Assembly (NCBI RefSeq): GCF_054482525.1 | Contig: NZ_CM137006.1 | Direction: 5' to 3' (one strand) | DNA length: 64,000 nt | Shown: one piece after another, positions 1 to 16,367 of the stretch | Layout: the number at the start of each line of letters is the position of its first letter | How positions within the stretch are numbered: position 1 is the stretch's first letter | The notes under the pieces: generated by a model | The model's database searches: none | What the model saw: the letters and a program-made list of their open reading frames with translations, nothing else | Told to the model about the DNA's origin: nothing | Position numbers and translations under genes: made by a program

Positions 1-1
1 C

Positions 2-190: not shown

Positions 191-204
191 GAGAGGAAAT
201 GACA

Positions 205-1191: not shown

Positions 1192-1242
1192 CGCCTGTTA
1201 TTAACCTGTGGGTCGTAACAGACCCACTAATGGAGAAAGAAG

Positions 1243-1680: not shown

Positions 1681-1690
1681 GGTGATATCG

Positions 1691-2026: not shown

Positions 2027-2042
2027 GCCTCGCGAATCAGAC

Positions 2043-2064
2043 AAGGGGCTTCGGCCCCTTTATT
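2043..2064 (+). terminator. Rho-independent terminator after the capsid gene group (T7 Tphi-like position)
   Basis: aaGGGGCttcgGCCCCtttatt: GC stem, 4-nt loop, T-run. Confidence 0.65.
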
Positions 2065-2076
2065 GCAGGAGTGTAT

Positions 2077-2400: not shown

Positions 2401-3005
2401 TGGCCTCTGTAGTAGAGATCTGTAATCGTGCGCTGTCCAATATTGGCAACAGCCGCAGCATTAACAGCCTGACGGAAGCCAGCAAGGAAGCGGGGGAATG
2501 TTCGCTGCACTTTGAGGCCTGCCGTGATGCTGTGCTTTCTGATTTTGACTGGAACTTTGCTACCAAACGCGTGGCGCTTGCAGATACGAGCAATCCACCG
2601 CCTGACTGGGAATATGCGTACCAGTACCCGTCAGATTGTCTGCGCATTACTGAAATTATGCTTCCTGGTGTACGCAATCCAACAGCAGCAATGCGCGTTC
2701 AGTACGAAGTTGGTGCAGACACCAACGGAACAGGAAAGTTGATCTACACAGACCAGCCTCAGGCATGGCTCAAGTATGTCTCTCGCGTTACAGATGTGAA
2801 CATGTTTGATGCCATTTTTATGGAGGCGTTGGCCTGGCGTCTTGCGGCAGCTATTAACATGGCGCTGACTGGGAATGCAGACCTCGGTACGTTTGCCCTC
2901 AATATGTACAATCGCGTGATTCTTAGTGCTGGCTCGCATAGCCAGAATGAATCACAGGAACCACAGCCACCGGTTGACGAGTTTACCATTGCGAGGTTGT
3001 CCTGA
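2400..3005 (+). CDS. Putative head-tail adaptor / tail tubular protein A-like, 201 aa
   Basis: GGAGGT Shine-Dalgarno; ~200-aa gene immediately before an ~800-aa gene with overlapping stop/start, mirroring T7 gp11/gp12. Assignment is by position and size. Confidence 0.4.
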   Translation: MASVVEICNRALSNIGNSRSINSLTEASKEAGECSLHFEACRDAVLSDFDWNFATKRVALADTSNPPPDWEYAYQYPSDCLRITEIMLPGVRNPTAAMRVQYEVGADTNGTGKLIYTDQPQAWLKYVSRVTDVNMFDAIFMEALAWRLAAAINMALTGNADLGTFALNMYNRVILSAGSHSQNESQEPQPPVDEFTIARLS

Positions 3006-5476
3006 TGGCTATCAGTTGGATCCAGCCCAGCTTTGCCGGTGGTGAGATTGGACCGTCGTTGTACGGACGTATCGACATGGCGAAGTACCAGGTGGCATTG
3101 CGCAAGTGCGATAACTTTATCGTGCGGCAGTATGGCGGCGTTGAGAATCGACCTGGTACGCGTTTTGTCGGTGCCGCCAAATACCCAAATCGGAAATGCC
3201 GCCTGATCCCGTTCCAGTTCTCGACGGTTCAGACCTATGCTCTGGAGTTCGGACACCAGTACATGCGCGTTATCAAAGATGGTGCGTTGGTGCTGAACAG
3301 CAGCAATGTTATTTATGAAATTGCCACGCCATATACTGAAGCCGATCTGTTCCGAATTAAATTTACGCAAAGCGCCGACGTGCTTACGCTGGTTCACCCG
3401 GCATACCCGCCGAAAGAGTTGCGCCGCTATGCGCATGACAACTGGCAACTGGTTGATGTGGTAACGAAGAACGGGCCATTTGAAGATATCAATATTGACG
3501 AGTCAGTGACGGTTTATGCCAGCGCCAGCACTGGGACAATTACGTTAACGGCAAGCGCCTCTATTTTTGGCGCGGAGCAGGTAGGCAAATTGTTCTATCT
3601 GGAACAGCCTGCAGTGGATTCTGTGCCGGTATGGGAAACCAGTAAGAGTACGTCGATTGGCGATATTCGCCGTGCAGACAGTAACTACTATCGCGCCGTT
3701 ACAGCAGGAAAAACAGGCACTTTGCGCCCTTCGCATACAGAAGGCACATCATGGGATGGCTGGGGCGGATCCGGTGATGATGATACTGGCATTGAGTGGG
3801 AGTATCTGCACAGTGGTTTTGGCATTGCCCGTATAACTGCTGTAAATGGCACTACTGCAACTGCTGAGGTGATTTCCTATATCCCTTCGCAGGTCGTTGG
3901 CGAGGATAATGCCAGCTATAAATGGGCTAAATATGCCTGGAACAGTGTTAATGGTTATCCTGGCACTGTTGTTTATTATCAACAACGTCTTTACTTCGCC
4001 GCATCGACTGCGTTCCCTCAGACTATCTGGGCCAGCCGTACTGGGGATTATAAGGATTTTGGCAAAAGCAATCCTACGCAGGATGACGACAGAATTATCT
4101 ACACCTATGCCGGGCGTCAGGTTAATGAGATCCGCCACCTGATTGATGTTGGTTCGCTGGTGGCGCTGACTTCCGGAGGTGAGTATGTCATCACCGGCGA
4201 CCAGAACAAAGTGTTAACCCCATCATCATTTGCATTCAGCTCTCAGGGATCAAATGGCTCAAGCAACGTCCCGCCAATTGCCGTGGCGAATATTGCTTTG
4301 TTCGTCCAGGAGAAAGGCAGTGTTGTACGTGATCTGGCCTACTCATTCGATGTTGACGGCTATCAGGGGAACGACCTGACCATCCTTGCCAATCATCTTT
4401 TTCAGAAGCACAGCATTGTTGACTGGTGCTTCTCGATTGTCCCTTACTCCAGCGCCTTCTGCATTCGTGATGACGGTAAATTGCTGGTGATGACCTATTT
4501 GCGTGATCAGCAGGTTTTTGCATGGGCACCACAATCCAGTACCGGGAAATATGAAAGCACATGCAGTATCAGCGAAGGCAATGAAGATGCGGTGTATTTC
4601 GTCGTTAACCGAACCGTTAACGGGCAAACAGTGAGATACATAGAGCGACTGTCCAGCCGTTTATTTACCAGCGATGAAGATGCTTTCTTTGTTGATTCTG
4701 GCCTTAGCTATGATGGAAGAAATACGTCTGACAGAACGATGACCATCACTGGTGGTTCTGGTGAATGGGATTACCGCGCGGAATATACAATCAGTATTTC
4801 TGGTGGTGCGTACTTCACCAGTAGTGATGTCGGTGCGCAACTACAATTCCCTTATACCGGAACTGATCCTGATACTGGCGATGAAGTGTCAAAAGAATTA
4901 CGTTGCGACATTATTTCTGTAACCAGCAATACCGCTGTAGTGGTTCGTCCTAACAGGAACGTCCCATCATCCCTCAGGAATGTGGCCACCACGAACTGGC
5001 AGATGGCGCGCCGGACATTTGGAGGCCTGTCTCATCTTGAAGGCCAGATCGTAAACATTCTCTCTGATGCGAACGTGGAACCACAGAAAGTTGTTTCCGG
5101 AGGTGCCGTCACGCTGGAATCTCCGGGGGCTGTAGTGCACATCGGCCTGCCAATAACTGCTGAATTCGAAACACTGGATATCAACATTAGCGGACAGGAA
5201 ACGCTGCTGGACAAAAAACAGGTGATCCCGTCCGTTACTCTGGTTGTGAATGCCAGTCGCGGCATCTGGGCGACTACGCCCGGCGGTAAATGGTACGAAT
5301 ATCCACAGCGTGAATTCGAGTTCTACGATGATCCTGTTGATGATGCTACCGGAAAAGTAGAAGTGAAACTGGACAGTAACTGGGGCAAAAACGGGCGTGT
5401 AAAAATCCGTCAGCTTGACCCGTTGCCGCTGTCTGTTCTTGCCGTTATTCCTCGCCTTACTGTTGGGGGAGTCTGA
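3005..5476 (+). CDS. Putative tail tubular protein B / nozzle-like protein, 823 aa
   Basis: TGATG overlap with the upstream gene; size and position match T7 gp12. N-terminus is Gly/Pro-rich. Confidence 0.45.
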   Translation: MAISWIQPSFAGGEIGPSLYGRIDMAKYQVALRKCDNFIVRQYGGVENRPGTRFVGAAKYPNRKCRLIPFQFSTVQTYALEFGHQYMRVIKDGALVLNSSNVIYEIATPYTEADLFRIKFTQSADVLTLVHPAYPPKELRRYAHDNWQLVDVVTKNGPFEDINIDESVTVYASASTGTITLTASASIFGAEQVGKLFYLEQPAVDSVPVWETSKSTSIGDIRRADSNYYRAVTAGKTGTLRPSHTEGTSWDGWGGSGDDDTGIEWEYLHSGFGIARITAVNGTTATAEVISYIPSQVVGEDNASYKWAKYAWNSVNGYPGTVVYYQQRLYFAASTAFPQTIWASRTGDYKDFGKSNPTQDDDRIIYTYAGRQVNEIRHLIDVGSLVALTSGGEYVITGDQNKVLTPSSFAFSSQGSNGSSNVPPIAVANIALFVQEKGSVVRDLAYSFDVDGYQGNDLTILANHLFQKHSIVDWCFSIVPYSSAFCIRDDGKLLVMTYLRDQQVFAWAPQSSTGKYESTCSISEGNEDAVYFVVNRTVNGQTVRYIERLSSRLFTSDEDAFFVDSGLSYDGRNTSDRTMTITGGSGEWDYRAEYTISISGGAYFTSSDVGAQLQFPYTGTDPDTGDEVSKELRCDIISVTSNTAVVVRPNRNVPSSLRNVATTNWQMARRTFGGLSHLEGQIVNILSDANVEPQKVVSGGAVTLESPGAVVHIGLPITAEFETLDINISGQETLLDKKQVIPSVTLVVNASRGIWATTPGGKWYEYPQREFEFYDDPVDDATGKVEVKLDSNWGKNGRVKIRQLDPLPLSVLAVIPRLTVGGV

Positions 5477-5940
5477 TGATCGATGTTCAAATTATTCCCG
5501 CTACCGAAGAGCATCTTCAGATGATTTTGCCGGATGTTCGTCAGGCTGATATTGACGAACTGTATGCGGTATCGCTGATGACTACCGAAGATGCGCTGCG
5601 CGTTGGTCTTCGCACTGCGACTATGGCCTGGTCAGGGTTCGCGAACGGAGAACTGGTAACCATGTTTGGTGTATCTCCGGCGTCAATGATCGGTGGCAAT
5701 GGTACGCCCTGGCTGGTAGGAACCAGCCGTATTGAAAAATATCAGAAGACATTTCTGCGCCACTGCCGCCCTGTATTGCAGCAGATGCTGGCAGTTTATC
5801 CGCGCCTGGAAAACTACGTCGACGAGCGAAACCATGTTGCCAAAGCATGGCTGCACTGGCTTGGATTCAGGCTTGAAGAAGCCGCGCCTTATGGTGCTCT
5901 TGGTCTTAATTTCCACAGATTTCACATGGAGAGAAAATAA
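5476..5940 (+). CDS. Putative internal virion protein, 154 aa
   Basis: Start overlaps the upstream stop; lies in the internal-protein block between nozzle-like gene and tailspike. Confidence 0.35.
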   Translation: MIDVQIIPATEEHLQMILPDVRQADIDELYAVSLMTTEDALRVGLRTATMAWSGFANGELVTMFGVSPASMIGGNGTPWLVGTSRIEKYQKTFLRHCRPVLQQMLAVYPRLENYVDERNHVAKAWLHWLGFRLEEAAPYGALGLNFHRFHMERK

Positions 5941-6485
5941 TGTGCGATCCGGTTATTGCTGGTGGCGCAATGCTCGCCATGAGTGGCATTCAGGCATACA
6001 CCCAGTACCAACAGGGAAAGTATGCCTCGAAGGTTGCAGAAGCGAACGCAGATATAGCCACAGCTCAGGCAAATGATGCAATAAACAGAGGTAACGCTGA
6101 AGCTGAGCAACGACGCAGAGAGACCCGACAGCGGCTTGGTACACAGGCGGCGACAATGGGGGCTACCGGCGCTGATTTATCTACAGGTAACGCGCTGGAT
6201 ATATTTGGCGACACTGCCCAGTTTGGCGCTCTTGATTCGCTGACGACGGTGAATAACGCGCAACGCGAGGCTTACGGTTATCAGGTTCAGGCTGCCAACT
6301 ATAAAGCAGAAGCCAGTTCAGCCCGTAAACAGGGGAATGTGGGAGCAGCAACAACATTGCTCACTGCGCCTCTGAAGGCATACGGTGCCTACCAGATGTT
6401 TGGTGGGACGTGGAGTCCGTTTACTCAAAGTACTCCTGCACCAATCGGGGCAGCAGCAGGAACCAGATTACCCGGAGGATTATAA
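5940..6485 (+). CDS. Putative internal virion protein, 181 aa, Ala/Gly/Gln-rich
   Basis: TAATG overlap with upstream gene; low-complexity helical composition typical of ejection proteins. Confidence 0.35.
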   Translation: MCDPVIAGGAMLAMSGIQAYTQYQQGKYASKVAEANADIATAQANDAINRGNAEAEQRRRETRQRLGTQAATMGATGADLSTGNALDIFGDTAQFGALDSLTTVNNAQREAYGYQVQAANYKAEASSARKQGNVGAATTLLTAPLKAYGAYQMFGGTWSPFTQSTPAPIGAAAGTRLPGGL

Positions 6486-8998
6486 TGCCAGTCGTACCAA
6501 CAGTATCCGGACGTCAGGTTGAGAGCCGTGGAGTTCAGTCAGCAGGCTTGCAGACGTTTTCTCAGCCAGGTATTGGTGATGCTTTTGTTCGGGCAGGGGC
6601 AGAGGCTATTGATGTTTTTGGTCAGGCAAAACAGCGTGCCAATATCGCTCTGGCTCAGGAGGCATCTCTTAACCTCAGTCAGATAAGCAGTGATCTGCTG
6701 AATAATCCTGAAACAGGATTGCTTAACCTGAAAGGGAAAAATGCTATTGGAAAAGGCCATGAGTATACGCAGCAGTTTGATGCTCAGGTCGAACAACTGG
6801 CTATGTCGCTGCCGGATGAACAGGCTCGTAATGCTTTCATGCAGCAGGCGCAGCAGCAGCGCATTCAGTTCACTACGCAGGCAGGGCGGCACGAGATAGG
6901 GCAAATAAATGCCTACGAAGAAGGCCAGTTTCAGGCTACGCTGCTGAACAATGGTAAAAATGCCGCAGCATTGTATGGCGACAACGCCGCATACGTATTG
7001 GCTAATAAGCAAACTTTCCAGCAAATTGAGGATTACGGCATTGCACATGGCTGGAGTGACGAGCAAATCCAGGCCAAGAAAATCGAGTTTAAAGAAGCAA
7101 CAGCAAAAGCAACTGCTCAAAATGCTATTGGAGCAAACTATCTTCAGGTAAGACAGCAAAACGGCGAGTTAAGCGATACTGCTGCTGGATCTCGCCGTGC
7201 TGTAGCAGATAGTGGCTCTTTCGATCGTACCCGCGGTATACGCAACAATAACCCCGGCAATCTTGAATACAGCAAAACTAATCCGTGGGTTGGGCAGACA
7301 GGTGATGATGGTCGCTTTGCTAAATTCGAAACACCTGAACACGGTATTCGTGCATTAGGGCGGAACCTGATGTCGTATCAGCGGCAGGGTATTGATACCG
7401 TCAGCGAGATAATTAATCGCTGGGCACCGCCCACTGATAAAAATGACACAATGTCGTATATCAAAGCAGTGTGCGAACAACTTGGCGTTTCTGCTGATGA
7501 GTCTCTCGATGCATCTAATCCGGATACCCTGAAGGCGCTTTGTGCAGCCATTATCCATCATGAAAACGGTAGCCAGCCATACAGTGATCAGCAGTTAACT
7601 GATGGTGTTAGTGCTGCGCTGGGGCTTTCTCAGCTACCGACAAAAAATAAACGTTATACCGGTGTAGCTTGGTTCGATGCTTTAAGTGAATCAGATCAGG
7701 CCAGCGTGTTGCGACAGACTGATGCACTAGCCAGACAACAGCAGGCTGAATATAAAACGATGCTCGACAGCCGGGTTCGCGATGCGACGGCTGCGTATAT
7801 GCGTGGCGTTGAATTTCCTAACCCACCTGGTGAGGATGATTTTATTGCAGCTTATGGAGTCAGAGAAGGAAACCTGCGATATACCGAGTTTAAGAATACG
7901 CAGATCGCCGGACAGTATATAGGCTCTTTCCGCAACATGCCGACAAGCAGCATTACAGCATATGTTGAGCAATTACGCCCGGATACTGGTGATACAGGGG
8001 AGGGGTATGCGGCACGCGCAGCTCTTTATGACAACGTTGTTTCGGCTGCAAATCAGGTGATAAAGCAGCGGCAGTCGGATCCTGTGCAGTTCTCTCTTGC
8101 CTCCGGACAGGCAAAGCCTATCGACATGAGCAATAAGGATAACTTTGGACAGAGCGTTGCCTTGCGTGCCGCTCAGGTCAGTGACCTTGCTAAGTCATAT
8201 GGCACTCCACTGACGTTCTTTTCCAAAGACGAGGCCAATCAGATCGGTGTTTTCTTTCGTGATGCTCCAGTTTCCCAACAGGCAGCATATCTCGATACCA
8301 TCAGGCAGAGCACTGGTGGTGGGCAGGTGTATATGTCAGCACTACAGCAGATCAGTGCCAACGCTCCATCTGCTGCCGTTGCCGGGATACTGATGGATAA
8401 GCCTGGTGGTATTTTGGCAGAAAAAAACTGGTTTAATCCGGATGTTTCCGTGTCTCCTGAAACCGCTGCGCAGACAATTCTTGCTGGCGCGGCGGCTCGT
8501 AAAGGTACTGATGATGCGAAAGGTATTCCGATGCCTAAAGATGCTGATCTTCGCCTTGAGTTTTCTGACATGGTGAAGGATGCATTTGCTGGTGACGCTC
8601 AGGGGGCATCAATGGCATACGAGATCGCAAAGGATTATTACGCTGGTGTGATGGCGAAAAAAGGCGTGGTATCAGGCGAAATTGACAATGATGTCTGGAA
8701 ACAGGCTGTTAACGTAGCTACAGGTGGCGTGCATGACTATAACGGAATGGGGAATGTCCTTTTGCCGTGGGGAATGTCTGCAGAGCAATTCGATAAGCAG
8801 GTTAATCAGGCTTGGAATGAACAAGTTGTCGGCTCTGGGATAAAAACACCGCCTGGTCAGTATGGTTTGCAAAGTTACGGCGATAGTCAGTACCTGGTGA
8901 AACTTGGTACTGGTTATCTGCTGAAAGATGATGGTTCTCCCGTTGTTCTTAATCTGACACAGAAGCGTCAGAGATTCTCCGGAGATATTCCGCAATGA
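6485..8998 (+). CDS. Putative internal virion/ejection protein, 837 aa, with a conserved central block
   Basis: Track ORF 6410..8998; ATG at 6485 overlaps the upstream stop (TAATG). Central block GIRNNNPGNL...RWAPP...HHENG looks like a globular domain. Confidence 0.4.
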   Translation: MPVVPTVSGRQVESRGVQSAGLQTFSQPGIGDAFVRAGAEAIDVFGQAKQRANIALAQEASLNLSQISSDLLNNPETGLLNLKGKNAIGKGHEYTQQFDAQVEQLAMSLPDEQARNAFMQQAQQQRIQFTTQAGRHEIGQINAYEEGQFQATLLNNGKNAAALYGDNAAYVLANKQTFQQIEDYGIAHGWSDEQIQAKKIEFKEATAKATAQNAIGANYLQVRQQNGELSDTAAGSRRAVADSGSFDRTRGIRNNNPGNLEYSKTNPWVGQTGDDGRFAKFETPEHGIRALGRNLMSYQRQGIDTVSEIINRWAPPTDKNDTMSYIKAVCEQLGVSADESLDASNPDTLKALCAAIIHHENGSQPYSDQQLTDGVSAALGLSQLPTKNKRYTGVAWFDALSESDQASVLRQTDALARQQQAEYKTMLDSRVRDATAAYMRGVEFPNPPGEDDFIAAYGVREGNLRYTEFKNTQIAGQYIGSFRNMPTSSITAYVEQLRPDTGDTGEGYAARAALYDNVVSAANQVIKQRQSDPVQFSLASGQAKPIDMSNKDNFGQSVALRAAQVSDLAKSYGTPLTFFSKDEANQIGVFFRDAPVSQQAAYLDTIRQSTGGGQVYMSALQQISANAPSAAVAGILMDKPGGILAEKNWFNPDVSVSPETAAQTILAGAAARKGTDDAKGIPMPKDADLRLEFSDMVKDAFAGDAQGASMAYEIAKDYYAGVMAKKGVVSGEIDNDVWKQAVNVATGGVHDYNGMGNVLLPWGMSAEQFDKQVNQAWNEQVVGSGIKTPPGQYGLQSYGDSQYLVKLGTGYLLKDDGSPVVLNLTQKRQRFSGDIPQ

Positions 8999-10797
8999 GT
9001 TACTTTGGCCTTAATCCAGTAAACCAGAATCAGCAGCTTGACGAAGCAGCATCAAATCCAGCTGGCTTTAACAGCGATGTTGGTTTTTTCGACAATGCTG
9101 TAGGAGCGGCATTGTCTGGTTTGTACTCCGGGCTGGTGGCAAAGCCAGATCAGTTGCTATGGGCAGGGATGGATAAAATCGTATCCCCGATTGCTCAGTT
9201 TGTTAACGAAAACACCTCGCTCAATGATACTTCAGTTTCATACATTGCCGAGCAGAGAAAACTAGCAGAGCAGCAGGTTAAGCGGCTGACGCCTGATGCC
9301 GCGACAACCGGAACCGCTGGGCAGGTTCTTTATGGGTTGTTCGATATGGGCGGGCAGGCTGTTGTCGGTACAACGCTCGGTGGTCCTGTCGGAGGTGCAG
9401 CGGCGGTAACTTCGCTACAGGGTTTTTCTGAGTTTGAACGGCTGACAGCACAGGGTGTTGATTTCAGGACGGCGCAGGAAGCGGGATTAGTGCAGGGCAT
9501 TACTGCTGGTGCCGGAACGCTGATCCCTATGAGCCTCGGGTTACGTGCTGGTGGTGCGCTGGCGGAAGGTGTGGCGGCTCAGCTTGCGCGGACGGGTGAG
9601 AGTTCAGTGCGACGCGCCGCAGCAACAGCAGTACGTGCAACGCCAGATATTGCCTATGCCGCAGGTACAAATATTGCGTTCGGTATGGCACAGCGTGGGC
9701 TTACTGCAAAAACACTTCGTGATGGTGGCTATAGCGAAATGGCTAACCAGTATGATGTGTTGGATCGACAGGCAATTGCTATTGATGCTGTTCTTGGGGT
9801 GGCGTTTGGTGGTGTCGGCAGATTTATTAACTCTCGCGGCGAGTCTACAAACGCACCAAATTTTTCACCAGTTGATATCGATGCTGCACTGGCGGCGAAT
9901 GCCGCTCATCATGCTGAAATTGATATTGCGCCCGGCGTGCCGATCAACGTGCTTTCGCGCAATTCTCACATTCAGGCTCTGCGAAAAGCTATGTCTGATG
10001 TTAGCCAGGGGAGACCTGTAGACGTTGCCAGCATTGTTGAGTCTGCATCTTTCAGTGAAATTCCTGGGCGCAAGAGTCTGCTGTCTCAGGCAGTTAATGA
10101 GGCTCTGTCATCTGTAGATGATGGAGTAACGGCGCGCGCTATAGAAAATCGGTTGCTTGAAGAACAGGCCGCGCAGCTTTTGCCGCGTGGAGATAGACAG
10201 GTTTACCAGTCTGAAATCGCTAATAGCCAACGAATTATTGAAAATCTCACTGAACAGCGTGCACAAATTCTTGCAGAAGAGCCAACCGGTAGCGGTAAAG
10301 CTTTGTCTCGTGCTCGATCAGATAAACAGGCCAGACTTCGCGATATTGATCAACGAATCCGGCAGGCACAAGAACGCCTGGAATTTTCCCGTAACGCGTT
10401 GGCACCGCACGAGCCTGGCGGTCAGTTTTTTGAAGCTCGAGCAGAACTGGCTCGGAGACAGCAGGCAGAAAGTGAACTTAATGCTCAGGCTGTTTCATTC
10501 TATAAAACAGCAGAGGTCAGGACGCCAGACGAAGTAGCTCCTTTTGAGCCTGATAAAATATTGCAACAGGCAGAACAAAAAATGATGTCAGATCAGGCAG
10601 GAGATATTGATCTGCGCATAGCTGAAGACTCGCTGCTTGAATCACCTGACATGATAATCACCGTGCTGGATGATGATGGTAATCCACAATCGCGCAGTGC
10701 GCGTGAAGTACTGGATGAAGCGAACAGGGAAAGTGAGCAGGCAATACAGGATTCCAGCCTGTTTGATGTTGCTGTGGCGTGTTTCTTGAGAGGTTAA
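8995..10797 (+). CDS. Putative internal virion/ejection protein, 600 aa
   Basis: ATGA overlap with upstream gene; Gly/Ala-rich N-terminal half and charged helical C-terminal half. Confidence 0.4.
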   Translation: MSYFGLNPVNQNQQLDEAASNPAGFNSDVGFFDNAVGAALSGLYSGLVAKPDQLLWAGMDKIVSPIAQFVNENTSLNDTSVSYIAEQRKLAEQQVKRLTPDAATTGTAGQVLYGLFDMGGQAVVGTTLGGPVGGAAAVTSLQGFSEFERLTAQGVDFRTAQEAGLVQGITAGAGTLIPMSLGLRAGGALAEGVAAQLARTGESSVRRAAATAVRATPDIAYAAGTNIAFGMAQRGLTAKTLRDGGYSEMANQYDVLDRQAIAIDAVLGVAFGGVGRFINSRGESTNAPNFSPVDIDAALAANAAHHAEIDIAPGVPINVLSRNSHIQALRKAMSDVSQGRPVDVASIVESASFSEIPGRKSLLSQAVNEALSSVDDGVTARAIENRLLEEQAAQLLPRGDRQVYQSEIANSQRIIENLTEQRAQILAEEPTGSGKALSRARSDKQARLRDIDQRIRQAQERLEFSRNALAPHEPGGQFFEARAELARRQQAESELNAQAVSFYKTAEVRTPDEVAPFEPDKILQQAEQKMMSDQAGDIDLRIAEDSLLESPDMIITVLDDDGNPQSRSAREVLDEANRESEQAIQDSSLFDVAVACFLRG

Positions 10798-10802
10798 ATT
10801 AA

Positions 10803-13277
10803 ATGAGACAGGAATGTATACAAGCGGTCCAGCAGGCGGCGCAGCGCACGTTAACGGCGCGAGAAATACAGAACATTGAAGACCGCATTTATCGAAATAT
10901 GCGCTCCATTGCTCGTGATGACCCGATGTCGTGGCGACAACTTTCCGAATCAGAACGGTTGTATCGTGCAGCACAATTGGCATCTGAAGAATTACAGCGA
11001 GAAGCGGCATTAAAGAAACGTCGTGTGGCCCTCACTATAGCCGCACGTCAGAGATTGGATAAATTTATCAATAGCTATCAAGGGGCTGATGGGAAACTTG
11101 GCGCTCTTAACCGTACTATTGCTTTTAATGCAGACGGTAAATCGAATTTCCTCTCTGTTGAATCCAGAACAAAAGCCACCCGTGATTATGCATTGAGTCA
11201 ATTGCAGGAGGCATTCGAAGCAGTTGATCCTCGCTTTTTTGGTCTGTTTGAAGATGAAGCGGGCGTACGTGACCTGATATATGAAATGCGGGGGCAAAAT
11301 ACTGGCAATGCTAAAGCAAGAAAAGGTGCTAAGGCGTGGAGAGAAGTTACAGAGCTGCTGCGCCGCCGGTTTAATGATGCTGGTGGGGACATTGGCTATC
11401 TCGAAAACTGGGGGATCCCTCAACATCATTCTATGGAAAAGGTTGGGGCGGTATCAAAAGATAAATGGGTTAGCGATGTTATAGGTAAGCTGGATCGCAA
11501 ATATTATACCCGAGCCGATGGACAACTGATGAACGATGCCGAGTTGTCTGCATTTCTTGGAGAGGCTTATAACACGATCGCTACTGGTGGGCTGAATAAG
11601 CTTACTGATACCGGAATGCGAATTTCCGGCGCACGTGCTAACCGTGGTAATGCATCACGACAGATACATTTCAAAGATGCAGATTCCTATCTGCAATATC
11701 AGCAACTTTATGGCGATCGCTCTCTATGGGAAATCATGGTCGGTCACCTGGAAGGTATCAGTAAAGATATTGCACTGGTGGAAACATATGGTCCAAACCC
11801 CGATCATGTTTTCCGCTCTCTTCTTGATCAGGTGAAGGCAGAAACGGCAACAGCTAACCCGAGTAAAACCGGTAAAGTCGAGCGGCTGGCGAACAACACA
11901 GAGAATCTGTACAACTTTATTTCCGGAAAGACACAGCCTGTAGCGAATCCGCACATCGCGCGATGGTCTGACAATATCCGCAACTGGCTGGTTGCCAGCA
12001 GACTCGGATCCGCGTTGCTGTCATCGTTCTCTGATCTTGGAACCATGTATCTGTCTGCGAAGGTTACCAACCTTCCAATGAACCAGTTATTCCGCAACCA
12101 GCTTGAAGCTATGGACCCAACGAACCGTACAGAACTTGCGCGGGCGCGCCGCGCTGGTCTGGCGATGGAATCTCTACTTGGCAGCGTTAACCGCTGGGCG
12201 ATGGATAATATGGGGCCGTCTGTGTCTCGTTGGGCTGCAACGGCGGTAATGCGTGCCAGTGGGCTTACAGCATGGTCAGATGCGCACAAGCGCGCCTATG
12301 GCGTAACCATGATGGGAAGCCTGGGAGAAGTAGTGTCACGGACACCAGACCTTCGTCGCCTCGATGACTCTGATTTTCGTATCCTGAAAAGCAAAGGGAT
12401 TACTGACACAGACTGGAGCGTATGGAAGTTGGCGCAACAGGAGGACTGGGGGAACGGTAATAATACGATGCTGACACCGGAAAGCATTATGCGTATCCCT
12501 GATTCAGCAGTTAAACATCTTGGTGAGCCTGAACGCGTGAAATTTGAGGCAATGCGTAAACTGCTCGGTGCCGTAACTGAAGAAGTTGATATGGCTGTTA
12601 TTACACCGGGAGCACGTGAGCAACTGATAACCGGTTCTGGTATTCAGCGTGGAACATGGAAAGGTGAATTAACGAGAAGTGTTTTCCTGTTTAAATCGTT
12701 CCCTATCTCGGTTGTTATGCGTCACTGGTCACGCGCTATGGGTATGCCGTCTGCTGGTGGGCGTGCGGCATATATTGCGACGTTTATTGCCAGTACGACC
12801 ATTCTTGGCGCTTTGTCGCAACAACTTAACGACCTTGCGTCTGGTCGTAATCCTCGAGAGATGACAGGAGAAGATGCTGCTAAATTTTGGCTTGGTGCTC
12901 TACTGAAAGGTGGTGGTCTTGGCCTTTACGGTGACTTTTTATTGTCAGATCACACTAGGTACGGGAGCGGCGCGCTGGCGTCGATGCTTGGCCCGGTAGC
13001 TGGTCTGGTTGATGACGTAGTGAAGATAGCTCAGGGCATACCGCTAAATGCTGTGGAAGGGAAGAGTGAGCAGACTGGTGGTGATCTGGTGAAGCTGGGG
13101 AAAGGTTTGATGCCAGGTGCGAATCTCTGGTACTTGAAGGCGGCTCTCGATCACATGATCTTTAATCAGATGCAGGAGTATTTTTCACCAGGCTATTTGC
13201 GTAAAATGGAGCAACGTTCGAAGAAAGAGTTTAACCAGACATACTGGTGGCGACCTCAGGATGTCACTCCGCAATAA
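10803..13277 (+). CDS. Putative internal virion/ejection protein, 824 aa
   Basis: GAGAGG Shine-Dalgarno; last large gene of the co-oriented structural block. Confidence 0.4.
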   Translation: MRQECIQAVQQAAQRTLTAREIQNIEDRIYRNMRSIARDDPMSWRQLSESERLYRAAQLASEELQREAALKKRRVALTIAARQRLDKFINSYQGADGKLGALNRTIAFNADGKSNFLSVESRTKATRDYALSQLQEAFEAVDPRFFGLFEDEAGVRDLIYEMRGQNTGNAKARKGAKAWREVTELLRRRFNDAGGDIGYLENWGIPQHHSMEKVGAVSKDKWVSDVIGKLDRKYYTRADGQLMNDAELSAFLGEAYNTIATGGLNKLTDTGMRISGARANRGNASRQIHFKDADSYLQYQQLYGDRSLWEIMVGHLEGISKDIALVETYGPNPDHVFRSLLDQVKAETATANPSKTGKVERLANNTENLYNFISGKTQPVANPHIARWSDNIRNWLVASRLGSALLSSFSDLGTMYLSAKVTNLPMNQLFRNQLEAMDPTNRTELARARRAGLAMESLLGSVNRWAMDNMGPSVSRWAATAVMRASGLTAWSDAHKRAYGVTMMGSLGEVVSRTPDLRRLDDSDFRILKSKGITDTDWSVWKLAQQEDWGNGNNTMLTPESIMRIPDSAVKHLGEPERVKFEAMRKLLGAVTEEVDMAVITPGAREQLITGSGIQRGTWKGELTRSVFLFKSFPISVVMRHWSRAMGMPSAGGRAAYIATFIASTTILGALSQQLNDLASGRNPREMTGEDAAKFWLGALLKGGGLGLYGDFLLSDHTRYGSGALASMLGPVAGLVDDVVKIAQGIPLNAVEGKSEQTGGDLVKLGKGLMPGANLWYLKAALDHMIFNQMQEYFSPGYLRKMEQRSKKEFNQTYWWRPQDVTPQ

Positions 13278-13286
13278 GGAAGTGTT

Positions 13287-13460
13287 GTGTTTTTAATTAT
13301 TTTGAGTGTGATAATTTCTGGTGGATTGTTATTTATTGACCGCTACAAATATTTTCTTAACCCTCAGACTCAAGCTATTTGCTGGTTCATCTTTGTTGTG
13401 CAGGGAGTAGTTCTTGTTGCAAGCCTTATTGAGGGGAGGCCTCTTATTTTTACTGGGTAA
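13287..13460 (+). CDS. Small hydrophobic protein, 57 aa, GTG start (below the ORF-track length cutoff)
   Basis: Hand translation: VFLIILSVIISGGLLFIDRYKYFLNPQTQAICWFIFVVQGVVLVASLIEGRPLIFTG. AAGGAAG Shine-Dalgarno 4 nt upstream; two predicted membrane helices; AT-rich. Confidence 0.3.
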   Translation: MFLIILSVIISGGLLFIDRYKYFLNPQTQAICWFIFVVQGVVLVASLIEGRPLIFTG

Positions 13461-13472
13461 ATAGGTGACTAC

Positions 13473-13769
13473 ATGCAAGCTATAGGATTCATTGTTTATA
13501 TCGTCGTTGGTCTTTTTCAGTTGGCAGCAATTATGGCTGGGCTTGAATCATGGTGGGGATTGCACTGGATAATTGCAGCCCCCATTGCTTTCATCGTGAG
13601 CTATATTCCATTTGTTGGAGCGATTGTTGGTATGGTTGGCGCTGTGGATGTATGGCGGTGGGAGTGGTGGCAGGCTGGCCTTCTCTTCTTTGGTGGGATC
13701 ATCTTTGCTATTGTCTGCGGTGGAATGTCATCATTTTTCGAATGGCTATCATTCAGAAAAGGGACGTGA
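13473..13769 (+). CDS. Small integral membrane protein, 98 aa (three predicted helices, Trp-rich loops)
   Basis: ORF with AGGTGA Shine-Dalgarno 6 nt upstream; strongly hydrophobic segments. Confidence 0.5.
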   Translation: MQAIGFIVYIVVGLFQLAAIMAGLESWWGLHWIIAAPIAFIVSYIPFVGAIVGMVGAVDVWRWEWWQAGLLFFGGIIFAIVCGGMSSFFEWLSFRKGT

Positions 13770-13800
13770 CATGTCACAGGCCGCTTTCGCGGCCTTGTTT

Positions 13801-13962
13801 TTAACGAATGCCACCGCCGCCCGGACGGGAATCCGCAGAACGCCCACCGCAGCGGGAGCCGTCAGCGGCAGTATCGCTGTCGTGCTGACAACGACCGGCA
13901 AAGGCCTGAGTTGAAGCTACCAGAGACAACAAAACGAACAGTGCAGCAAATGCTTTTTTCAT
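13801..13962 (-). CDS. Small protein with canonical Sec signal peptide, 53 aa; antisense-overlaps an alternative + strand 47-aa ORF (13771..13914)
   Basis: MKKAFAALFVLLSLVASTQAFA then a Gly/Arg/Asp-rich 31-residue tail with two Cys. Upstream TTGACG-16nt-TATAGA promoter-like element. Only one of the two overlapping ORFs is likely real. Confidence 0.3.
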   Translation of the reverse strand: MKKAFAALFVLLSLVASTQAFAGRCQHDSDTAADGSRCGGRSADSRPGGGGIR

Positions 13963-14035
13963 TGTGAAATTTCCATCTATAAGCCACCTCAATGTGGCGT
14001 CAATGAGTGTAGCACTGACTTTTGTTTCGTCCACA

Positions 14036-14058
14036 AAAAATCCCGCAGCGCGGGCTTA
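14036..14058 (-). terminator. Intrinsic terminator downstream of the toxin-like gene
   Basis: Minus strand reads aagCCCGCgctGCGGGattttttg. Confidence 0.5.
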
Positions 14059-14601
14059 TTCCTTCCATTTATCAGAAAAAAGATCTTCTTCTAAAGGCAT
14101 TGGTTCTGTTTTTGTTTTCTCAAAGAATTGATAACTGATAGTGATTGCTGCCTCTTTAAACTCTTCTTGCTCAGTTATGTTGTGGGCATCTGCGTCAACA
14201 AAAAACATAACCAGCGCATCACGATTGTGATTTACCGAATAAACTAAAAAGCAATTACTTGTTGGTATGCATTTTACTTGCACAGACGCTATTTTTTTCC
14301 ATGCATCCCAAGATGATTTTTTACCAGTGTGTTTTTTATCACTATCTTCTGGAATATAGTCTTGGTTATCGACATGAGTATGCCTGACATTTAGTTTAAG
14401 CATTTCTGTCGGACGAGCAAATGCAGCATCTTTACCAAGAGATGGATGGTATCCCGTTTTCCAATACTGGGTAAAGGCATCAGATACTTTCTTCAGCTCA
14501 AGATCAGATGCACAAAGGGCCGAGAAATTTTGCGTATGCAATACTCGACCCTTATATCTGACAATTTGATTTTTATCATTCTGCGACGCAGACGAACTCA
14601 T
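14056..14601 (-). CDS. Hypothetical toxin-like accessory protein, 181 aa (tentative resemblance to YafO-family toxins; unverified)
   Basis: Track ORF 14056..14628; ATG at 14601 with AAGGAA Shine-Dalgarno. AT-rich, opposite strand to virion genes. Motifs YHPSLGKDAAFARP and VRHTHV recalled as YafO-like, from memory only. Confidence 0.5.
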   Translation of the reverse strand: MSSSASQNDKNQIVRYKGRVLHTQNFSALCASDLELKKVSDAFTQYWKTGYHPSLGKDAAFARPTEMLKLNVRHTHVDNQDYIPEDSDKKHTGKKSSWDAWKKIASVQVKCIPTSNCFLVYSVNHNRDALVMFFVDADAHNITEQEEFKEAAITISYQFFEKTKTEPMPLEEDLFSDKWKE

Positions 14602-14755
14602 AATTTTCCTTATTGTTACGAGAATCAAAGAAAGCGCGGGATACGCGACTTGCGTGATCTTTTGTCATAGTAACTTTTACGCACTCTACGCTTCCATTGA
14701 AAGAACGTCTTGCGGCAGCTTGCGCTCTACGCATCTGCAATTTTTCGTTTCGCAT
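14576..14755 (-). CDS. Small basic ORF, 59 aa, overlapping the start of the toxin-like gene (candidate antitoxin/regulator)
   Basis: Hand translation: MRNEKLQMRRAQAAARRSFNGSVECVKVTMTKDHASRVSRAFFDSRNNKENYEFVCVAE. GAGGT Shine-Dalgarno 6 nt upstream; 26-nt overlap with the downstream gene. Not in ORF track (<60 aa). Confidence 0.25.
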   Translation of the reverse strand: MRNEKLQMRRAQAAARRSFNGSVECVKVTMTKDHASRVSRAFFDSRNNKENYEFVCVAE

Positions 14756-14902
14756 GACATTACCTCATATCTCATAAGTTCATTACACGGATTAATAAAA
14801 ATGAAACCAATCCGTTTACCCTTGAGGTAATAGTACGCTATTCACCCACAGTCTGCAATCTGTACAGAATTATTTAAAGGCACATCCCTGTGCCGCCGCC
14901 CG

Positions 14903-15598
14903 TCAGAAGAACCCTGCCTTGTCGTTGATGTACTCCGCGTGCGTCTGGATATCACGCAGGCATTTGCTCACACCGACGATGTAGCAGAACATGGTGGTCA
15001 GCTCCGCCGCCGCGCCCGATACGTCGTGCCCGTCGTCCTGTAACTGGTTCAGCAGATTCATCAGCAGTGAGTTCTCCGTCAGGCCGAGAACACCAGACGG
15101 CGAATGAATCAGGCTGCGGTAGCCGGGCTTCAGTGGGGCACTGTAGGTTTTGTTCTCTATCTTCATCGCCTGCATCACTGCTGATGCTGTGGCGTTGGCT
15201 ACCTGGTCGGCAACCATCTTTATGCGCTCTTCCTGCGGGAGCGAGTTTTTAATGTAACTTCCGGTGCGGCGGATCTGAGGAAGAACCTCACCTGTAACCC
15301 ATTTACGAAAGCGGTATGGGATAGTGCCTGGTGTCACTGCGTCGCGGCAGCGGAGGATCAGTGTGTAGAGGCCTGACTCGGAGATGATGATCGATTCTTG
15401 CTCACCGCCAGGGGTGTCGGTTGAAGCGACGCCCTTCTCATCATCATCAAGTTTTCGAACAGCATCTCGATGGTTTGCTATGCCTATAGCCCGACAAACA
15501 TCTGAAGCGATAAACCATGGCTCACCATTAATGACGATTACTCGTATATCGGCTTGGGATTCGAAAGAAAAAATGGACGTGCTTTTTGTAGCTGTCAT
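14903..15598 (-). CDS. Bro-N (KilA-N-like) domain protein, antirepressor-like, 231 aa
   Basis: N-terminal pattern F.F...IRV....GEPWF.A.DVC...G......A...LDDDEK...T.GG.Q...ISESGLY.LI.R......FR.WVT.EVLP.IRRTG matches Bro-N; AAAAGG Shine-Dalgarno. Confidence 0.7.
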   Translation of the reverse strand: MTATKSTSIFSFESQADIRVIVINGEPWFIASDVCRAIGIANHRDAVRKLDDDEKGVASTDTPGGEQESIIISESGLYTLILRCRDAVTPGTIPYRFRKWVTGEVLPQIRRTGSYIKNSLPQEERIKMVADQVANATASAVMQAMKIENKTYSAPLKPGYRSLIHSPSGVLGLTENSLLMNLLNQLQDDGHDVSGAAAELTTMFCYIVGVSKCLRDIQTHAEYINDKAGFF

Positions 15599-15913
15599 AG
15601 TGGTTACCTTTTAGTCTGGTTAATCACCACTACCGACGCCAATCGGTTGGTGGTGAGCTGTGCAGGGTTGGCGTAACCGGCTAAAAGGACCCGGCGCACC
15701 TTTCGGTGCCCCCACACAGCCCACCATAATACGAATGTGGCCGTGCTATACGCATAAAAAAACCGCTTGCGCGGTGAATGCGCCTTTTAGTAATCCGGGA
15801 CGCCAATCCCGGCACTGGATTTTGCCAGTGCCCGATTACTATGGCACAAGAGGAGTGCGATGTAAATTTACCGCAAAGGTAAATATAAGCACTTCATTTG
15901 GTAATTGCAAACC

Positions 15914-16171
15914 TTATCTGGTTTGTTTTCGTAATTGTTCGGCACAATAGTCGAGATGTGTTTGCAGATCCTGCATAGACATCTGTGAGCTGGTGACGTA
16001 GTTAATCAGTGCAGTCAGTTCGGCAAGTGGGCCATCGACATTAAATCCATCCTTATCTAGATCCCGGAGTAATTTCATCAAGTGCGATCCCTCCACCAGT
16101 GACTTGACGCCTCCCGGCGTGTGAATCCTTTCGGTAAATCCGTCTTCCAGTGGATAGTGATACTGCTGCAT
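15914..16171 (-). CDS. Small protein, 85 aa, paralog of the C-terminal domain of the adjacent Bro-N protein
   Basis: HTPGGVKSLVEGSHLMKLLRDLDKDGFNVDGPLAELTAL...LQTHLDY aligns with HSPSGVLGLTENSLLMNLLNQLQDDGHDVSGAAAELTTM...IQTHAEY of the 231-aa protein. Second ATG (16171) has a GGAG Shine-Dalgarno; track start is 16186. Confidence 0.55.
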   Translation of the reverse strand: MQQYHYPLEDGFTERIHTPGGVKSLVEGSHLMKLLRDLDKDGFNVDGPLAELTALINYVTSSQMSMQDLQTHLDYCAEQLRKQTR

Positions 16172-16193
16172 CTTAATCTTCTCCATGCAATAA

Positions 16194-16209
16194 CTGTATA
16201 TTTATACAG
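16194..16209 (-). promoter_or_regulatory. LexA (SOS) box upstream of the 85-90 aa gene / Bro-N gene pair
   Basis: CTGTATATTTATACAG fits CTGT-N8-ACAG with an AT-rich centre; TTGATA -35-like hexamer abuts it on the coding strand. Confidence 0.65.
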
Positions 16210-16367
16210 TATCAAATAATTTGTTTGCTATCCAGCACGTTTTGCAAATTACCTAAAAGGTAATATCTATTTATATTCACAGTATTTCTATCCATATGTG
16301 GTTTTTCAGGTAATAGAATAACCAGATATGCGGCGCAACGGGTGCTGCGACTATCTGGAGATTTAAC

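What the first reader, a model, noticed from the sequence alone, without database searches (positions are those of the whole stretch)
16160..16260. Near-consensus LexA box directly upstream of the small-protein / Bro-N gene pair
CTGTATATTTATACAG (16194..16209) is an almost perfect SOS box, 23-38 nt upstream of the better-supported start of the 85-aa gene and abutting a TTGATA -35-like hexamer. This predicts that the 85-aa protein and the downstream Bro-N antirepressor-like protein are expressed on DNA damage, a LexA-controlled antirepressor arrangement known from a few temperate phages (coliphage 186 Tum, Gifsy phages). Here it sits in the middle of the virion genes, which is unusual.
Basis: partly seen in the sequence, partly recalled or inferred. 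Interest (0 to 1): 0.7.

Follow-up and report, generated by a model that had tools for sequence, protein, structure and literature searches.

The report
Known SOS-controlled phage antirepressor switch
The LexA box is real and very strong, but it is the E. coli copy of a DNA-damage switch already characterised in the related Salmonella phage SPC32H, and the neighbouring Bro-N gene has separate controls: its own repressor-controlled promoter and an antisense RNA.

Summary
Observation confirmed. CTGTATATTTATACAG lies at 16194..16209, matches the 20-nt LexA consensus at 18 of 20 positions, and no shuffled window produced a comparable site.

The window holds the right-hand part of a phiV10/epsilon15-like (Uetakevirus) prophage of E. 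coli. The 85-aa gene (15914..16171, minus strand) is the orthologue of SPC32H Ant: 86.7% identical, and a match to PDB 5D50 "Anti-repressor protein" at E=1e-46. The box aligns with the SPC32H box, at the spot where SPC32N carries its C-to-A change. It is kept in 75 of 77 related viral contigs. Its position between the virion genes and the tailspike gene is normal for the genus.

So the antirepressor under LexA control is the small protein itself, and this arrangement is already known.

The Bro-N gene is not a simple operon partner. Between it and ant lie:
- a promoter overlapped by a phage-repressor (Rep) operator;
- an isrK RNA with a terminator;
- a C4 antisense RNA, whose loops pair with the Bro-N ribosome-binding site and co-vary with their targets across phages.

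This is a P1 immI / Gifsy-1 isrK-type cassette. The Bro-N protein carries an Ant-like C-terminal domain and is 230/231 identical to the ZX5 anti-repressor that was tested experimentally.

Interest is low to moderate.

The parts
16194..16209 (.). LexA (SOS) box CTGTATATTTATACAG; the 20-mer is 16192..16211. Operator of the ant promoter.
   Evidence: It aligns with the SPC32H/epsilon15/phiV10 box, and with the SPC32N C-to-A mutation (equivalent to plus-strand G16196T here). The arms are invariant in E. coli, Salmonella and Enterobacter relatives. It is present in 75 of 77 viral contigs.
16210..16215 (-). Tentative: 17 nt downstream lies only TATTGC. An alternative pair, TGGATA 16234..16229 and TACTGT 16211..16206, is conserved across the family.
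   Evidence: Sequence and invariant columns of alignment A2. The consensus promoter scan did not call any ant promoter. The promoter assignment is inference.
15914..16171 (-). ant: 85-aa antirepressor, orthologue of SPC32H Ant.
   Evidence: 86.7% identity to the gene annotated 'ant: anti-repressor protein' in KC911856 and KC911857. PDB 5D50 chain E 'Anti-repressor protein', E=1.2e-46. phrog_450. No Pfam family.
16249..16263 (.). Rep operator TTACCTAAAAGGTAA in the ant-tailspike intergenic region.
   Evidence: Same palindrome as the 7 'repressor' sites annotated in epsilon15. Conserved in all 9 aligned phages. A sister prophage has 11 perfect copies, 3 of them flanking its rep gene, against 0.04 expected.
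15868..15910 (-). isrK promoter: TTGCAA (15910..15905), 17 nt, TATATT (15887..15882), with Rep operator TTACCTTTGCGGTAA (15882..15868) starting at the last base of the -10.
   Evidence: Conserved in phiV10, Tyrion and a Klebsiella phage.
15756..15844 (-). isrK RNA, equivalent to the a1/b1 decoy element of the c4 system. Its terminator hairpin is at 15775..15762 followed by U7. b1 UUGGCGU is at 15806..15800 and a1 CUAAAAGG at 15790..15783.
   Evidence: Rfam isrK RF01394, 77.9 bits (gathering 50). c4-a1b1 RF03163, 45.1 bits (gathering 46.7, so just below). Terminator scan. RNA fold z=-3.0. Complementarity.
15646..15731 (-). C4 antisense RNA. Its a' loop CCUUUUAG is at 15688..15681 and b' ACGCCAA at 15674..15668.
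   Evidence: Rfam RF01695, 79.2 bits (gathering 45). Complementarities and three-way covariation.
15607..15642 (-). C4 targets in the Bro-N leader. b2 UUGGCGU is at 15642..15636. a2 CUAAAAGG is at 15614..15607, overlaps the Shine-Dalgarno sequence and ends 8 nt before the AUG.
14903..15598 (-). 231-aa antirepressor with a Bro-N domain (residues 17-107) and a C-terminal domain paralogous to Ant (residues ~148-229).
   Evidence: Pfam Bro-N, E=5.5e-21. C-terminus 42% identical to Ant, E=2e-15, and hits phrog_450. 230/231 identical to ZX5 ORF4, whose overexpression cut lysogen numbers about 1000-fold (PMC9782041).
14042..14858 (-). Third Rep-operator unit: TTGCAG (14858..14853), 17 nt, TACTAT (14835..14830), operator 14830..14816; a 59-aa gene (14755..14576); a 181-aa YafO-like gene (14601..14056); a terminator hairpin at 14054..14042. 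It is a neighbour, not part of the LexA unit.
   Evidence: RefSeq names the homologue a YafO family toxin, but the Pfam match is weak, E=0.0017. phrog_6685 and phrog_1651.

Best explanation
The palindrome is the LexA operator of the ant promoter of a phiV10/epsilon15-like (Uetakevirus) prophage. In an undamaged lysogen, host LexA sits on the box and keeps ant silent. DNA damage activates RecA, LexA cleaves itself, and the 85-aa Ant protein is made. Ant binds the prophage repressor Rep, breaks up its DNA-binding tetramer, and so frees the ATTACC-N5-GGTAAT operators. This is the SPC32H mechanism.

Shown here: the box and its conservation, orthology of Ant, the Rep operators, and an SPC32H-type Rep in a sister prophage.

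Inferred by homology: LexA binding and the Ant-Rep interaction in this particular prophage.

The downstream Bro-N gene is a second antirepressor, a Bro-N domain fused to an Ant-like domain, carried on a separate P1 immI / Gifsy-1 isrK-type cassette. That cassette has a Rep-controlled promoter, the isrK (a1/b1) RNA with a leaky terminator, and a C4 antisense RNA that pairs with the Bro-N ribosome-binding site. Bro-N would therefore come on only secondarily, after Rep is inactivated and/or C4 is outcompeted. That last step is inferred.

Orthology:
- Ant is 86.7% identical to SPC32H/SPC32N 'ant', with depositor annotation. It matches PDB 5D50_E 'Anti-repressor protein' at E=1.2e-46.
- The box aligns column for column with that of SPC32H.
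- SPC32N differs from SPC32H at only 2 of 3249 bases, and one is C-to-A in the CAG arm. That change costs 6.7 bits on the PWM.

Footprint:
- The CTGT and ACAG arms are invariant while the core and flanks vary in 6 E. coli, Salmonella and Enterobacter phages.
- 75 of 77 IMG/VR loci keep a perfect box at the same distance from the ATG.

Synteny:
- ant lies between gp17/18 and the tailspike gene throughout the genus.

Target:
- The sister prophage at the same guaA/yfgI site has a Rep that matches 5D50_A at E=4e-42 and 11 perfect operators.
- The window has 3 perfect operators.

Literature:
- LexA-controlled Ant of Kim and Ryu 2013, via the review PMC7380047.
- The Ant tetramer binds two Rep dimers and breaks the Rep tetramer, via PMC9638917.
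- ZX5, a close relative, is induced by mitomycin C.

Bro-N cassette:
-.
Against: - No experiment exists for this prophage.
- The Rep gene is outside the window: there is no tblastn hit, so a cognate target is only inferred from sister prophages.
- The ant promoter is not mapped. The consensus scan calls none.
- Three Klebsiella relatives have a degenerate left arm (ATGT) and score like the SPC32N mutant, so LexA control is not universal in the wider family.
- The primary SPC32H papers could not be read. The phenotype of the SPC32N mutation rests on my memory of the abstract plus secondary citations.
Confidence: 0.88

Rival explanations
1. One reading: one LexA-controlled operon expresses both the 85-aa protein and the Bro-N protein on DNA damage, with the Bro-N protein as the antirepressor.
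For: - Both genes are on the minus strand, 316 nt apart.
- There is no terminator between the ant stop codon and the isrK terminator, so ant transcripts run into the cassette.
- In Gifsy-1 the isrK terminator is leaky, and read-through makes the anrP mRNA.
Against: - The small protein is itself the characterised antirepressor.
- SPC32H, epsilon15 and BUCT554 have ant and the box but no Bro-N gene.
- The spacer holds its own Rep-operator promoter, a terminator hairpin with U7, and a C4 antisense RNA over the Bro-N Shine-Dalgarno sequence.
- The same RNA cassette precedes unrelated antirepressors elsewhere, and in 20 or more ant loci it carries different cargo.
Confidence: 0.15
2. The palindrome is a chance AT-rich inverted repeat, or the site of another regulator such as the phage Rep, and not a LexA site.
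For: The bare CTGT-N8-ACAG pattern occurs about 0.7 times per shuffled window. The core is AT-rich, as promoters are.
Against: - It matches the consensus at 18 of 20 positions, with no comparable site in 100 shuffles.
- Its PWM score is above all the recalled genuine sites.
- The arms specifically are conserved while the core varies.
- The Rep operator is a different palindrome.
- The SPC32N natural mutation falls in the arm.
Confidence: 0.02
3. The LexA box mainly controls the divergent tailspike and lysis genes rather than ant.
For: - The box lies in the 196-bp ant-tailspike intergenic region.
- A weak second LexA-like site (16265..16284, 12.2 bits) lies nearer the tailspike gene, and it is a perfect CTGT-N8-ACAG in the sister prophage.
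Against: - The box is 159 nt from the tailspike ATG. The Rep operator and the conserved TCCATA-17-TAGAAT element lie in between.
- The second site scores at chance level and is not conserved.
- The box is 23 nt from the ant ATG.
Confidence: 0.03

Closest known systems
Salmonella phage SPC32H Rep-Ant switch (Kim and Ryu 2013, J Virol 87:11775; Kim et al. 2016, PNAS 113:E2480; PDB 5D50); genus Uetakevirus
   Same: Ant is orthologous (86.7% identity). The LexA box is at the aligned position overlapping the ant promoter. The gene neighbourhood (gp17/18, ant, divergent tailspike) is the same, as is the Rep operator palindrome. A sister E. coli prophage has an SPC32H-type Rep.
   Different: The host is E. 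coli. The box is closer to consensus (27.9 against 25.3 bits). Rep is much more diverged than Ant: the ZX5 paper reports 42% with epsilon15. Instead of being followed directly by a hairpin next to the virion genes, ant here is followed by an isrK/C4/Bro-N cassette and a YafO-like pair.
Phage P1/P7 immI region (c4 antisense RNA - icd - ant; Citron and Schuster 1990), with a primary-repressor operator at its promoter (the operator detail is from my own knowledge)
   Same: For the Bro-N unit only. It has a promoter with a repressor operator, then a1/b1, then C4 RNA, then a2/b2 over a ribosome-binding site, then an antirepressor gene. Rfam C4 and c4-a1b1 match, and the loops and targets co-vary.
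   Different: No icd-like upstream ORF was identified; a2 lies over the antirepressor's own Shine-Dalgarno sequence. The antirepressor is a Bro-N/Ant-domain protein, not P1 Ant. The cassette sits immediately downstream of a LexA-controlled gene.
Gifsy-1 isrK locus (IsrK - orf45/STnc1160 - anrP; Hershko-Shalev et al. 2016, PMC4825925)
   Same: The order isrK, then C4, then antirepressor is identical, with homologous RNAs. The terminator is leaky, and short IsrK activates translation of the read-through mRNA.
   Different: AnrP is unrelated to the Bro-N protein. The a-box sequence differs. In Gifsy-1 the locus lies next to the Q antiterminator gene, not next to ant.
   Same: The logic is the same: a LexA box, a small antirepressor, and inactivation of a repressor that is not cleaved (review PMC7380047).
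   Different: There is no detectable sequence relationship: Pfam and PHROG scans of Ant return no Tum or DinI family. The genomic position is different.
APSE phages of Hamiltonella: c4 and isrK sRNAs next to a BRO-N gene (PMC7313666)
   Same: The same two RNAs lie beside a Bro-N gene, with a'/b' matches upstream of it.
   Different: No LexA-controlled ant gene lies upstream there, as far as that paper reports.

Membership tests
SPC32H-type LexA-controlled Ant / Rep switch (Uetakevirus) | Small (~86 aa) Ant protein homologous to SPC32H Ant | tested here: met
   86.7% identity; PDB 5D50_E E=1.2e-46 over residues 2-84.
SPC32H-type LexA-controlled Ant / Rep switch (Uetakevirus) | LexA box overlapping the ant promoter, at the orthologous position | tested here: met
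   Alignments A1 and A2. The SPC32N mutation maps to the same arm. The promoter hexamers themselves are not mapped.
SPC32H-type LexA-controlled Ant / Rep switch (Uetakevirus) | ant lies between the gp17/18 virion genes and the divergent tailspike gene | tested here: met
   Window ORF map compared with phiV10, SPC32H, epsilon15, Tyrion, BUCT554, BUCT711 and OXA245phi3.2.
SPC32H-type LexA-controlled Ant / Rep switch (Uetakevirus) | Cognate SPC32H-type Rep and its ATTACC-N5-GGTAAT operators in the same prophage | tested here: inconclusive
   Operators are present, 3 perfect copies. The rep gene is not in the window. A sister prophage at the same att site has it (5D50_A, E=4e-42).
SPC32H-type LexA-controlled Ant / Rep switch (Uetakevirus) | LexA binds the box; ant is induced by the SOS response; Ant inactivates a Rep that is not cleaved | not testable with these tools
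   Needs EMSA, reporter fusions and pull-downs. The only related evidence is that the relative ZX5 is induced by mitomycin C.
P1 immI / Gifsy-1 isrK-type c4 antisense cassette (applies to the Bro-N gene) | C4 antisense RNA upstream of the regulated gene | tested here: met
   RF01695, 79.2 bits against a gathering score of 45.
P1 immI / Gifsy-1 isrK-type c4 antisense cassette (applies to the Bro-N gene) | Upstream a1/b1 element (isrK) with a terminator | tested here: met
   isrK RF01394, 77.9 bits against 50. c4-a1b1, 45.1 against 46.7, just below threshold. Terminator hairpin.
P1 immI / Gifsy-1 isrK-type c4 antisense cassette (applies to the Bro-N gene) | C4 loops a'/b' complementary to a2/b2 at the ribosome-binding site of the downstream gene | tested here: met
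   An 8-nt and a 7-nt perfect duplex; a2 ends 8 nt before the AUG. Compensatory changes in C4, isrK and the leader across Tyrion, Klebsiella and Gifsy-1 cassettes.
P1 immI / Gifsy-1 isrK-type c4 antisense cassette (applies to the Bro-N gene) | Small upstream ORF (icd / orf45) translationally coupled to the antirepressor gene | not tested
   None was identified by eye. Only 47 nt separate C4 from the Bro-N ATG, and a2 covers the Bro-N Shine-Dalgarno sequence itself. No systematic search for a coupled ORF overlapping C4 was made.
P1 immI / Gifsy-1 isrK-type c4 antisense cassette (applies to the Bro-N gene) | The regulated gene encodes an antirepressor | tested here: met
   230/231 identical to ZX5 ORF4, which lowered lysogeny when overexpressed. 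Its C-terminal domain is paralogous to Ant.
186 Tum / Gifsy GfoA-GfhA antirepressors | Protein homology to Tum (DinI-like) | tested here: not met
   Pfam gives no significant family. PHROG hits are phrog_450, phrog_15539 and phrog_1760 only.
P22 Ant / KilAC-type Bro-N antirepressors | Bro-N domain plus an ANT/KilAC or P22_AR C-terminal domain | tested here: not met
   Pfam finds only Bro-N, residues 17-107. The C-terminal domain is the SPC32H-Ant-like domain instead.

The most novel reading that the evidence does not exclude
The LexA unit and the RNA-switch unit may be physically coupled. ant has no terminator of its own, so damage-induced ant transcripts must run into the isrK element and end at, or read through, its terminator. 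Each such transcript would carry the a1/b1 boxes that pair with C4.

DNA damage would then produce an ant-IsrK RNA that soaks up C4 and unmasks the Bro-N ribosome-binding site. Ant, meanwhile, would free the Rep-controlled isrK promoter. The result would be a two-stage, feed-forward cascade of two paralogous antirepressors: stand-alone Ant first, then the Bro-N-Ant fusion, possibly with a broader repressor range. A direct wiring of the SOS response into a c4-type antisense switch has not, as far as I could find, been described.
Probability: 0.25. Interest if true: 0.55.

Novelty: already known. Interest (0 to 1): 0.27.

Why it matters
For annotation: the small "hypothetical protein" next to the tailspike gene in phiV10-like prophages is probably the primary SOS-responsive induction trigger. 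Related DNA turns up in 940 of the 5426 complete E. coli genomes searched. The published work on the close relative ZX5 looked only at the Bro-N protein and did not mention the small protein. The locus also shows three known control layers side by side in 2.3 kb: LexA, the phage repressor and a c4-type antisense RNA. Two paralogous antirepressors sit under them, which makes it a compact system for asking how prophages grade their response to DNA damage. The LexA-Ant mechanism itself adds nothing new.

Tried and rejected
- Primary papers could not be read: Kim and Ryu 2013 (PMC3807360), Kim et al. 2016 (PMC4983836) and the epsilon15 genome paper (PMC2698709) are not held. A search for 'SPC32N' found nothing useful.
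- Rep in the window: tblastn with epsilon15 gp38 found nothing, because the prophage is cut off at the left edge of the window.
- A second LexA box for Bro-N or the YafO-like operon: none scores above 6 bits.
- A tRNA-like reading of the conserved spacer: ARAGORN found nothing. Rfam resolved it as isrK plus C4.
- Homology of the Bro-N protein to Gifsy-1 AnrP: none.
- NCBIfam and PADLOC scans of all four module proteins: no hits. The Pfam YafO match is only marginal.
- The 80 IMG/VR loci were all 98% identical or more, so they added population-level conservation but no deep conservation.
- I ran no further search on this locus, because a solved structure of an 87%-identical protein already exists.

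Full report
**1.

CTGTATATTTATACAG is at 16194..16209. The 20-mer at 16192..16211 matches the LexA consensus TACTGTATATATATACAGTA at 18 of 20 positions. None of 100 dinucleotide-preserving shuffles gave a site with 3 or fewer mismatches.

The bare CTGT-N8-ACAG pattern is not rare in itself: 2 hits, 0.69 expected. On a rough PWM built from E. coli SOS boxes that I listed from memory (a ranking aid only), the site scores 27.9 bits. That is above all training sites (maximum 26.4) and above all shuffled windows (maximum 20.2). The runner-up in the window scores 12.2.

The 85-aa start is the right one. The upstream ATG at 16186 is out of frame in SPC32H and epsilon15, while GGAG plus the second ATG is conserved.

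**2. What the locus is**

The window carries the right-hand part of a phiV10/TL-2011b/epsilon15-like (genus Uetakevirus) temperate podophage. A near-identical prophage sits between guaA and yfgI in E. coli TO6. The window's ORFs from 21.7 kb onward match yfgI, yfgH and pdeF in size and order.

The 85-aa protein is 86.7% identical to the gene annotated 'ant: anti-repressor protein' in Salmonella phages SPC32H and SPC32N. It matches PDB 5D50 chain E, 'Anti-repressor protein', at E=1.2e-46.

When the ant-tailspike intergenic regions are aligned, the window's box falls on the SPC32H box. SPC32N differs from SPC32H by C-to-A in the CAG arm. That is one of only two differences in 3249 nt.

From my own knowledge of the abstract of Kim and Ryu 2013 (J Virol 87:11775):
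- SPC32H Rep is not cleaved during the SOS response.
- Rep is inactivated by the small protein Ant.
- ant is repressed by LexA.
- The SPC32N point mutation in the LexA site makes Ant constitutive.

I could not read that paper. A review does cite it for LexA-controlled antirepression (PMC7380047). Another paper summarises the follow-up structural work: the Ant tetramer binds two Rep dimers and breaks the DNA-binding Rep tetramer (PMC9638917).

**3. Conservation**

In phiV10, TL-2011b, SPC32H, epsilon15, Tyrion and BUCT554 the arms CTGT and ACAG are invariant, while the 8-nt core and the flanks vary.

In 77 IMG/VR contigs with usable upstream sequence, 75 have a perfect box at the same distance from the ATG, in four core variants. 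One exception is a Nextera adapter at a contig end. The other has a breakpoint inside the box.

Three Klebsiella phages, whose Ant is about 60% identical, have ATGT-N8-ACAG and score like the SPC32N mutant. LexA control may therefore be weaker or lost in that branch.

The position of ant, between the gp17/18 virion genes and the divergent tailspike gene, is the same in every member examined.

**4. The target**

No rep gene lies in the window, because the prophage is cut off in its capsid genes at the left edge. The sister prophage has a 194-aa HTH protein that matches the 5D50 'Repressor' chain at E=4e-42.

The epsilon15 record annotates seven repressor sites, all ATTACC-N5-GGTAAT. The sister prophage has 11 perfect TTACC-N5-GGTAA sites, all inside the prophage and three of them flanking rep, where 0.04 are expected.

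The window has three perfect copies, all within this 1.5-kb module: 16249..16263, 15868..15882 and 14816..14830.

**5. The Bro-N gene is a separate unit**

The 316-nt ant-to-BroN spacer is 85% conserved across E. coli, Enterobacter and Klebsiella phages. It contains, in order on the minus strand:
- a promoter-like TTGCAA-17-TATATT, whose last base begins a Rep operator;
- Rfam isrK (77.9 bits, gathering 50), overlapping the c4-a1b1 motif (45.1 against 46.7), and ending in a hairpin followed by U7;
- Rfam C4 antisense RNA (79.2 bits, gathering 45).

The C4 loop CCUUUUAG is exactly complementary to CUAAAAGG, both inside isrK and over the Bro-N Shine-Dalgarno sequence, where it ends 8 nt before the AUG. 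C4 ACGCCAA is complementary to UUGGCGU in both places too.

These boxes co-vary three ways. In Tyrion, the b-box changes in C4 (AGACCAA) and in both targets (UUGGUCU). The a-box is CCUUUGUAG in Tyrion, CCGUUUAG in the Klebsiella phage and CGGUGA in Gifsy-1, and each time the targets match at the same positions.

This is the architecture of P1/P7 immI (Citron and Schuster 1990, as cited) and of the Gifsy-1 isrK locus. There, read-through of the IsrK terminator gives an untranslated mRNA for the anti-repressor AnrP, and short IsrK switches that mRNA on in trans (PMC4825925). Rfam finds the same isrK-then-C4 order in front of anrP.

The RNA cassette is widespread, with hits in 307 phage records including Stx phages and APSE. 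It has already been noted beside a BRO-N gene in APSE. Its cargo varies: AnrP is unrelated to this Bro-N protein, and many ant loci carry the cassette with different cargo.

No LexA-like site lies near the Bro-N promoter.

**6. The Bro-N protein**

Pfam sees only Bro-N, at residues 17-107. The C-terminal ~80 residues are 42% identical to Ant (E=2e-15) and hit the same PHROG family. The protein is therefore a Bro-N domain fused to an Ant-like domain.

It is 230/231 identical to ORF4 of phage vB_EcoP_ZX5. Overexpressing ORF4 lowered lysogen titres from 1e9 to 1e6 and reduced repressor transcription. ZX5 is induced by mitomycin C (PMC9782041). That paper does not mention the small Ant, LexA or SPC32H.

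**7. Mechanism**

Most likely (confidence about 0.88 for the LexA-Ant part):
- LexA occupies the box and blocks the ant promoter.
- After DNA damage, Ant is made and disassembles Rep.
- The Rep-controlled promoters open, including the isrK/C4/Bro-N cassette and a 59-aa/YafO-like pair built on the same promoter-operator design.

Bro-N-Ant would then act as a second-stage or broader-range antirepressor, with its translation gated by C4. These later steps are inferred.

The promoter remains unmapped:
- A pair conserved across the family, TGGATA (16234..16229) and TACTGT (16211..16206), is an alternative.
- Either way the box overlaps the promoter.

**8. Verdict**

It misses that the small protein is the known antirepressor of a characterised system in the same genus. 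It is also wrong that the position is unusual and that Bro-N is a plain operon partner.

Novelty: already known.

The one open point of interest is that ant has no terminator before the isrK terminator. SOS-induced ant transcripts would therefore carry the a1/b1 decoy for C4, which could link LexA to the RNA switch. This is untested; I put it at about 0.25.

Noticed in passing
window 15646..15844 (minus strand): The 'spacer' between ant and Bro-N holds two Rfam RNAs above gathering score, isrK and C4 antisense RNA. The C4 loops pair with isrK and with the Bro-N ribosome-binding site, and they co-vary with both across phages.
   Followed up: yes
window 14816..14830, 15868..15882, 16249..16263: Three perfect TTACC-N5-GGTAA palindromes, which are Rep operators. 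Two of them begin at the last base of a -10 hexamer in an identical TTGCA(A/G)-17-TAnnnT design. The role of the third, between ant and the tailspike gene, is unclear: it overlaps neither the ant promoter candidates nor the conserved TCCATA-17-TAGAAT element at 16291..16319.
   Followed up: partly
window 14903..15598 (minus strand), residues ~148-229: The C-terminal domain of the Bro-N protein is a paralogue of the stand-alone Ant (42% identity). Neither has a Pfam family. Larger PHROG 'anti-repressor' families (phrog_130, phrog_1760) contain the same domain.
   Followed up: partly
window 14042..14858 (minus strand): A 59-aa gene overlapping a 181-aa gene that RefSeq calls a YafO family toxin (the Pfam match is only E=0.0017). 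The pair sits behind a Rep-operator promoter and ends at a bidirectional-looking hairpin. It may be a toxin-antitoxin-like moron repressed by the prophage repressor.
   Followed up: partly
window 16265..16284; L012 36543..36558: A weak second LexA-like site (CTAT-N8-ACAG, 12.2 bits, chance level) lies beside the Rep operator on the tailspike side. In the sister prophage of E. coli TO6 the same place is a perfect CTGTTCATATTCACAG. It is not conserved in phiV10 or SPC32H.
   Followed up: partly
L009, L010, L011 (Klebsiella phages), about 30 nt upstream of ant: The Klebsiella members have ATGT-N8-ACAG in place of CTGT-N8-ACAG and score like the constitutive SPC32N mutant. ant may have escaped LexA control, or be only weakly controlled, in that branch.
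   Followed up: partly
L032 (IMGVR_UViG_2563366870_000004) and L030: L032 has a breakpoint inside the LexA box: the left arm is replaced by unrelated sequence, which would predict constitutive ant. L030 begins with a Nextera adapter sequence (GATGTGTATAAGAGACAG) fused into the box, an assembly artefact.
   Followed up: no
L002 3636..4724 (TL-2011b); L012 35441..36169 (E. coli TO6): Some relatives have an extra insert of roughly 0.7-0.9 kb between ant and the Bro-N gene (my estimate from the annotated features). In TO6 it includes a plus-strand ORF, with another Rep operator nearby at L012 35406..35420.
   Followed up: no
Ant against Rep across the genus: Ant is 83-87% identical between the Salmonella and E. 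coli members, while Rep is only about 42% identical (figure from the ZX5 paper). The operator palindrome is nevertheless the same. This hints that Ant may act across heteroimmune relatives.
   Followed up: no
window 54816..54939 (plus strand): Rfam STnc490 Hfq-binding sRNA (146 bits) in the host chromosome flank, unrelated to the prophage.
   Followed up: no
window 1..21500 and 21691 onward: The window begins inside the prophage, in its capsid genes, and the prophage ends after the lysis genes at about 21.5 kb. Host yfgI, yfgH and pdeF follow. The integrase, rep and terminase side lies off the left edge.
   Followed up: partly
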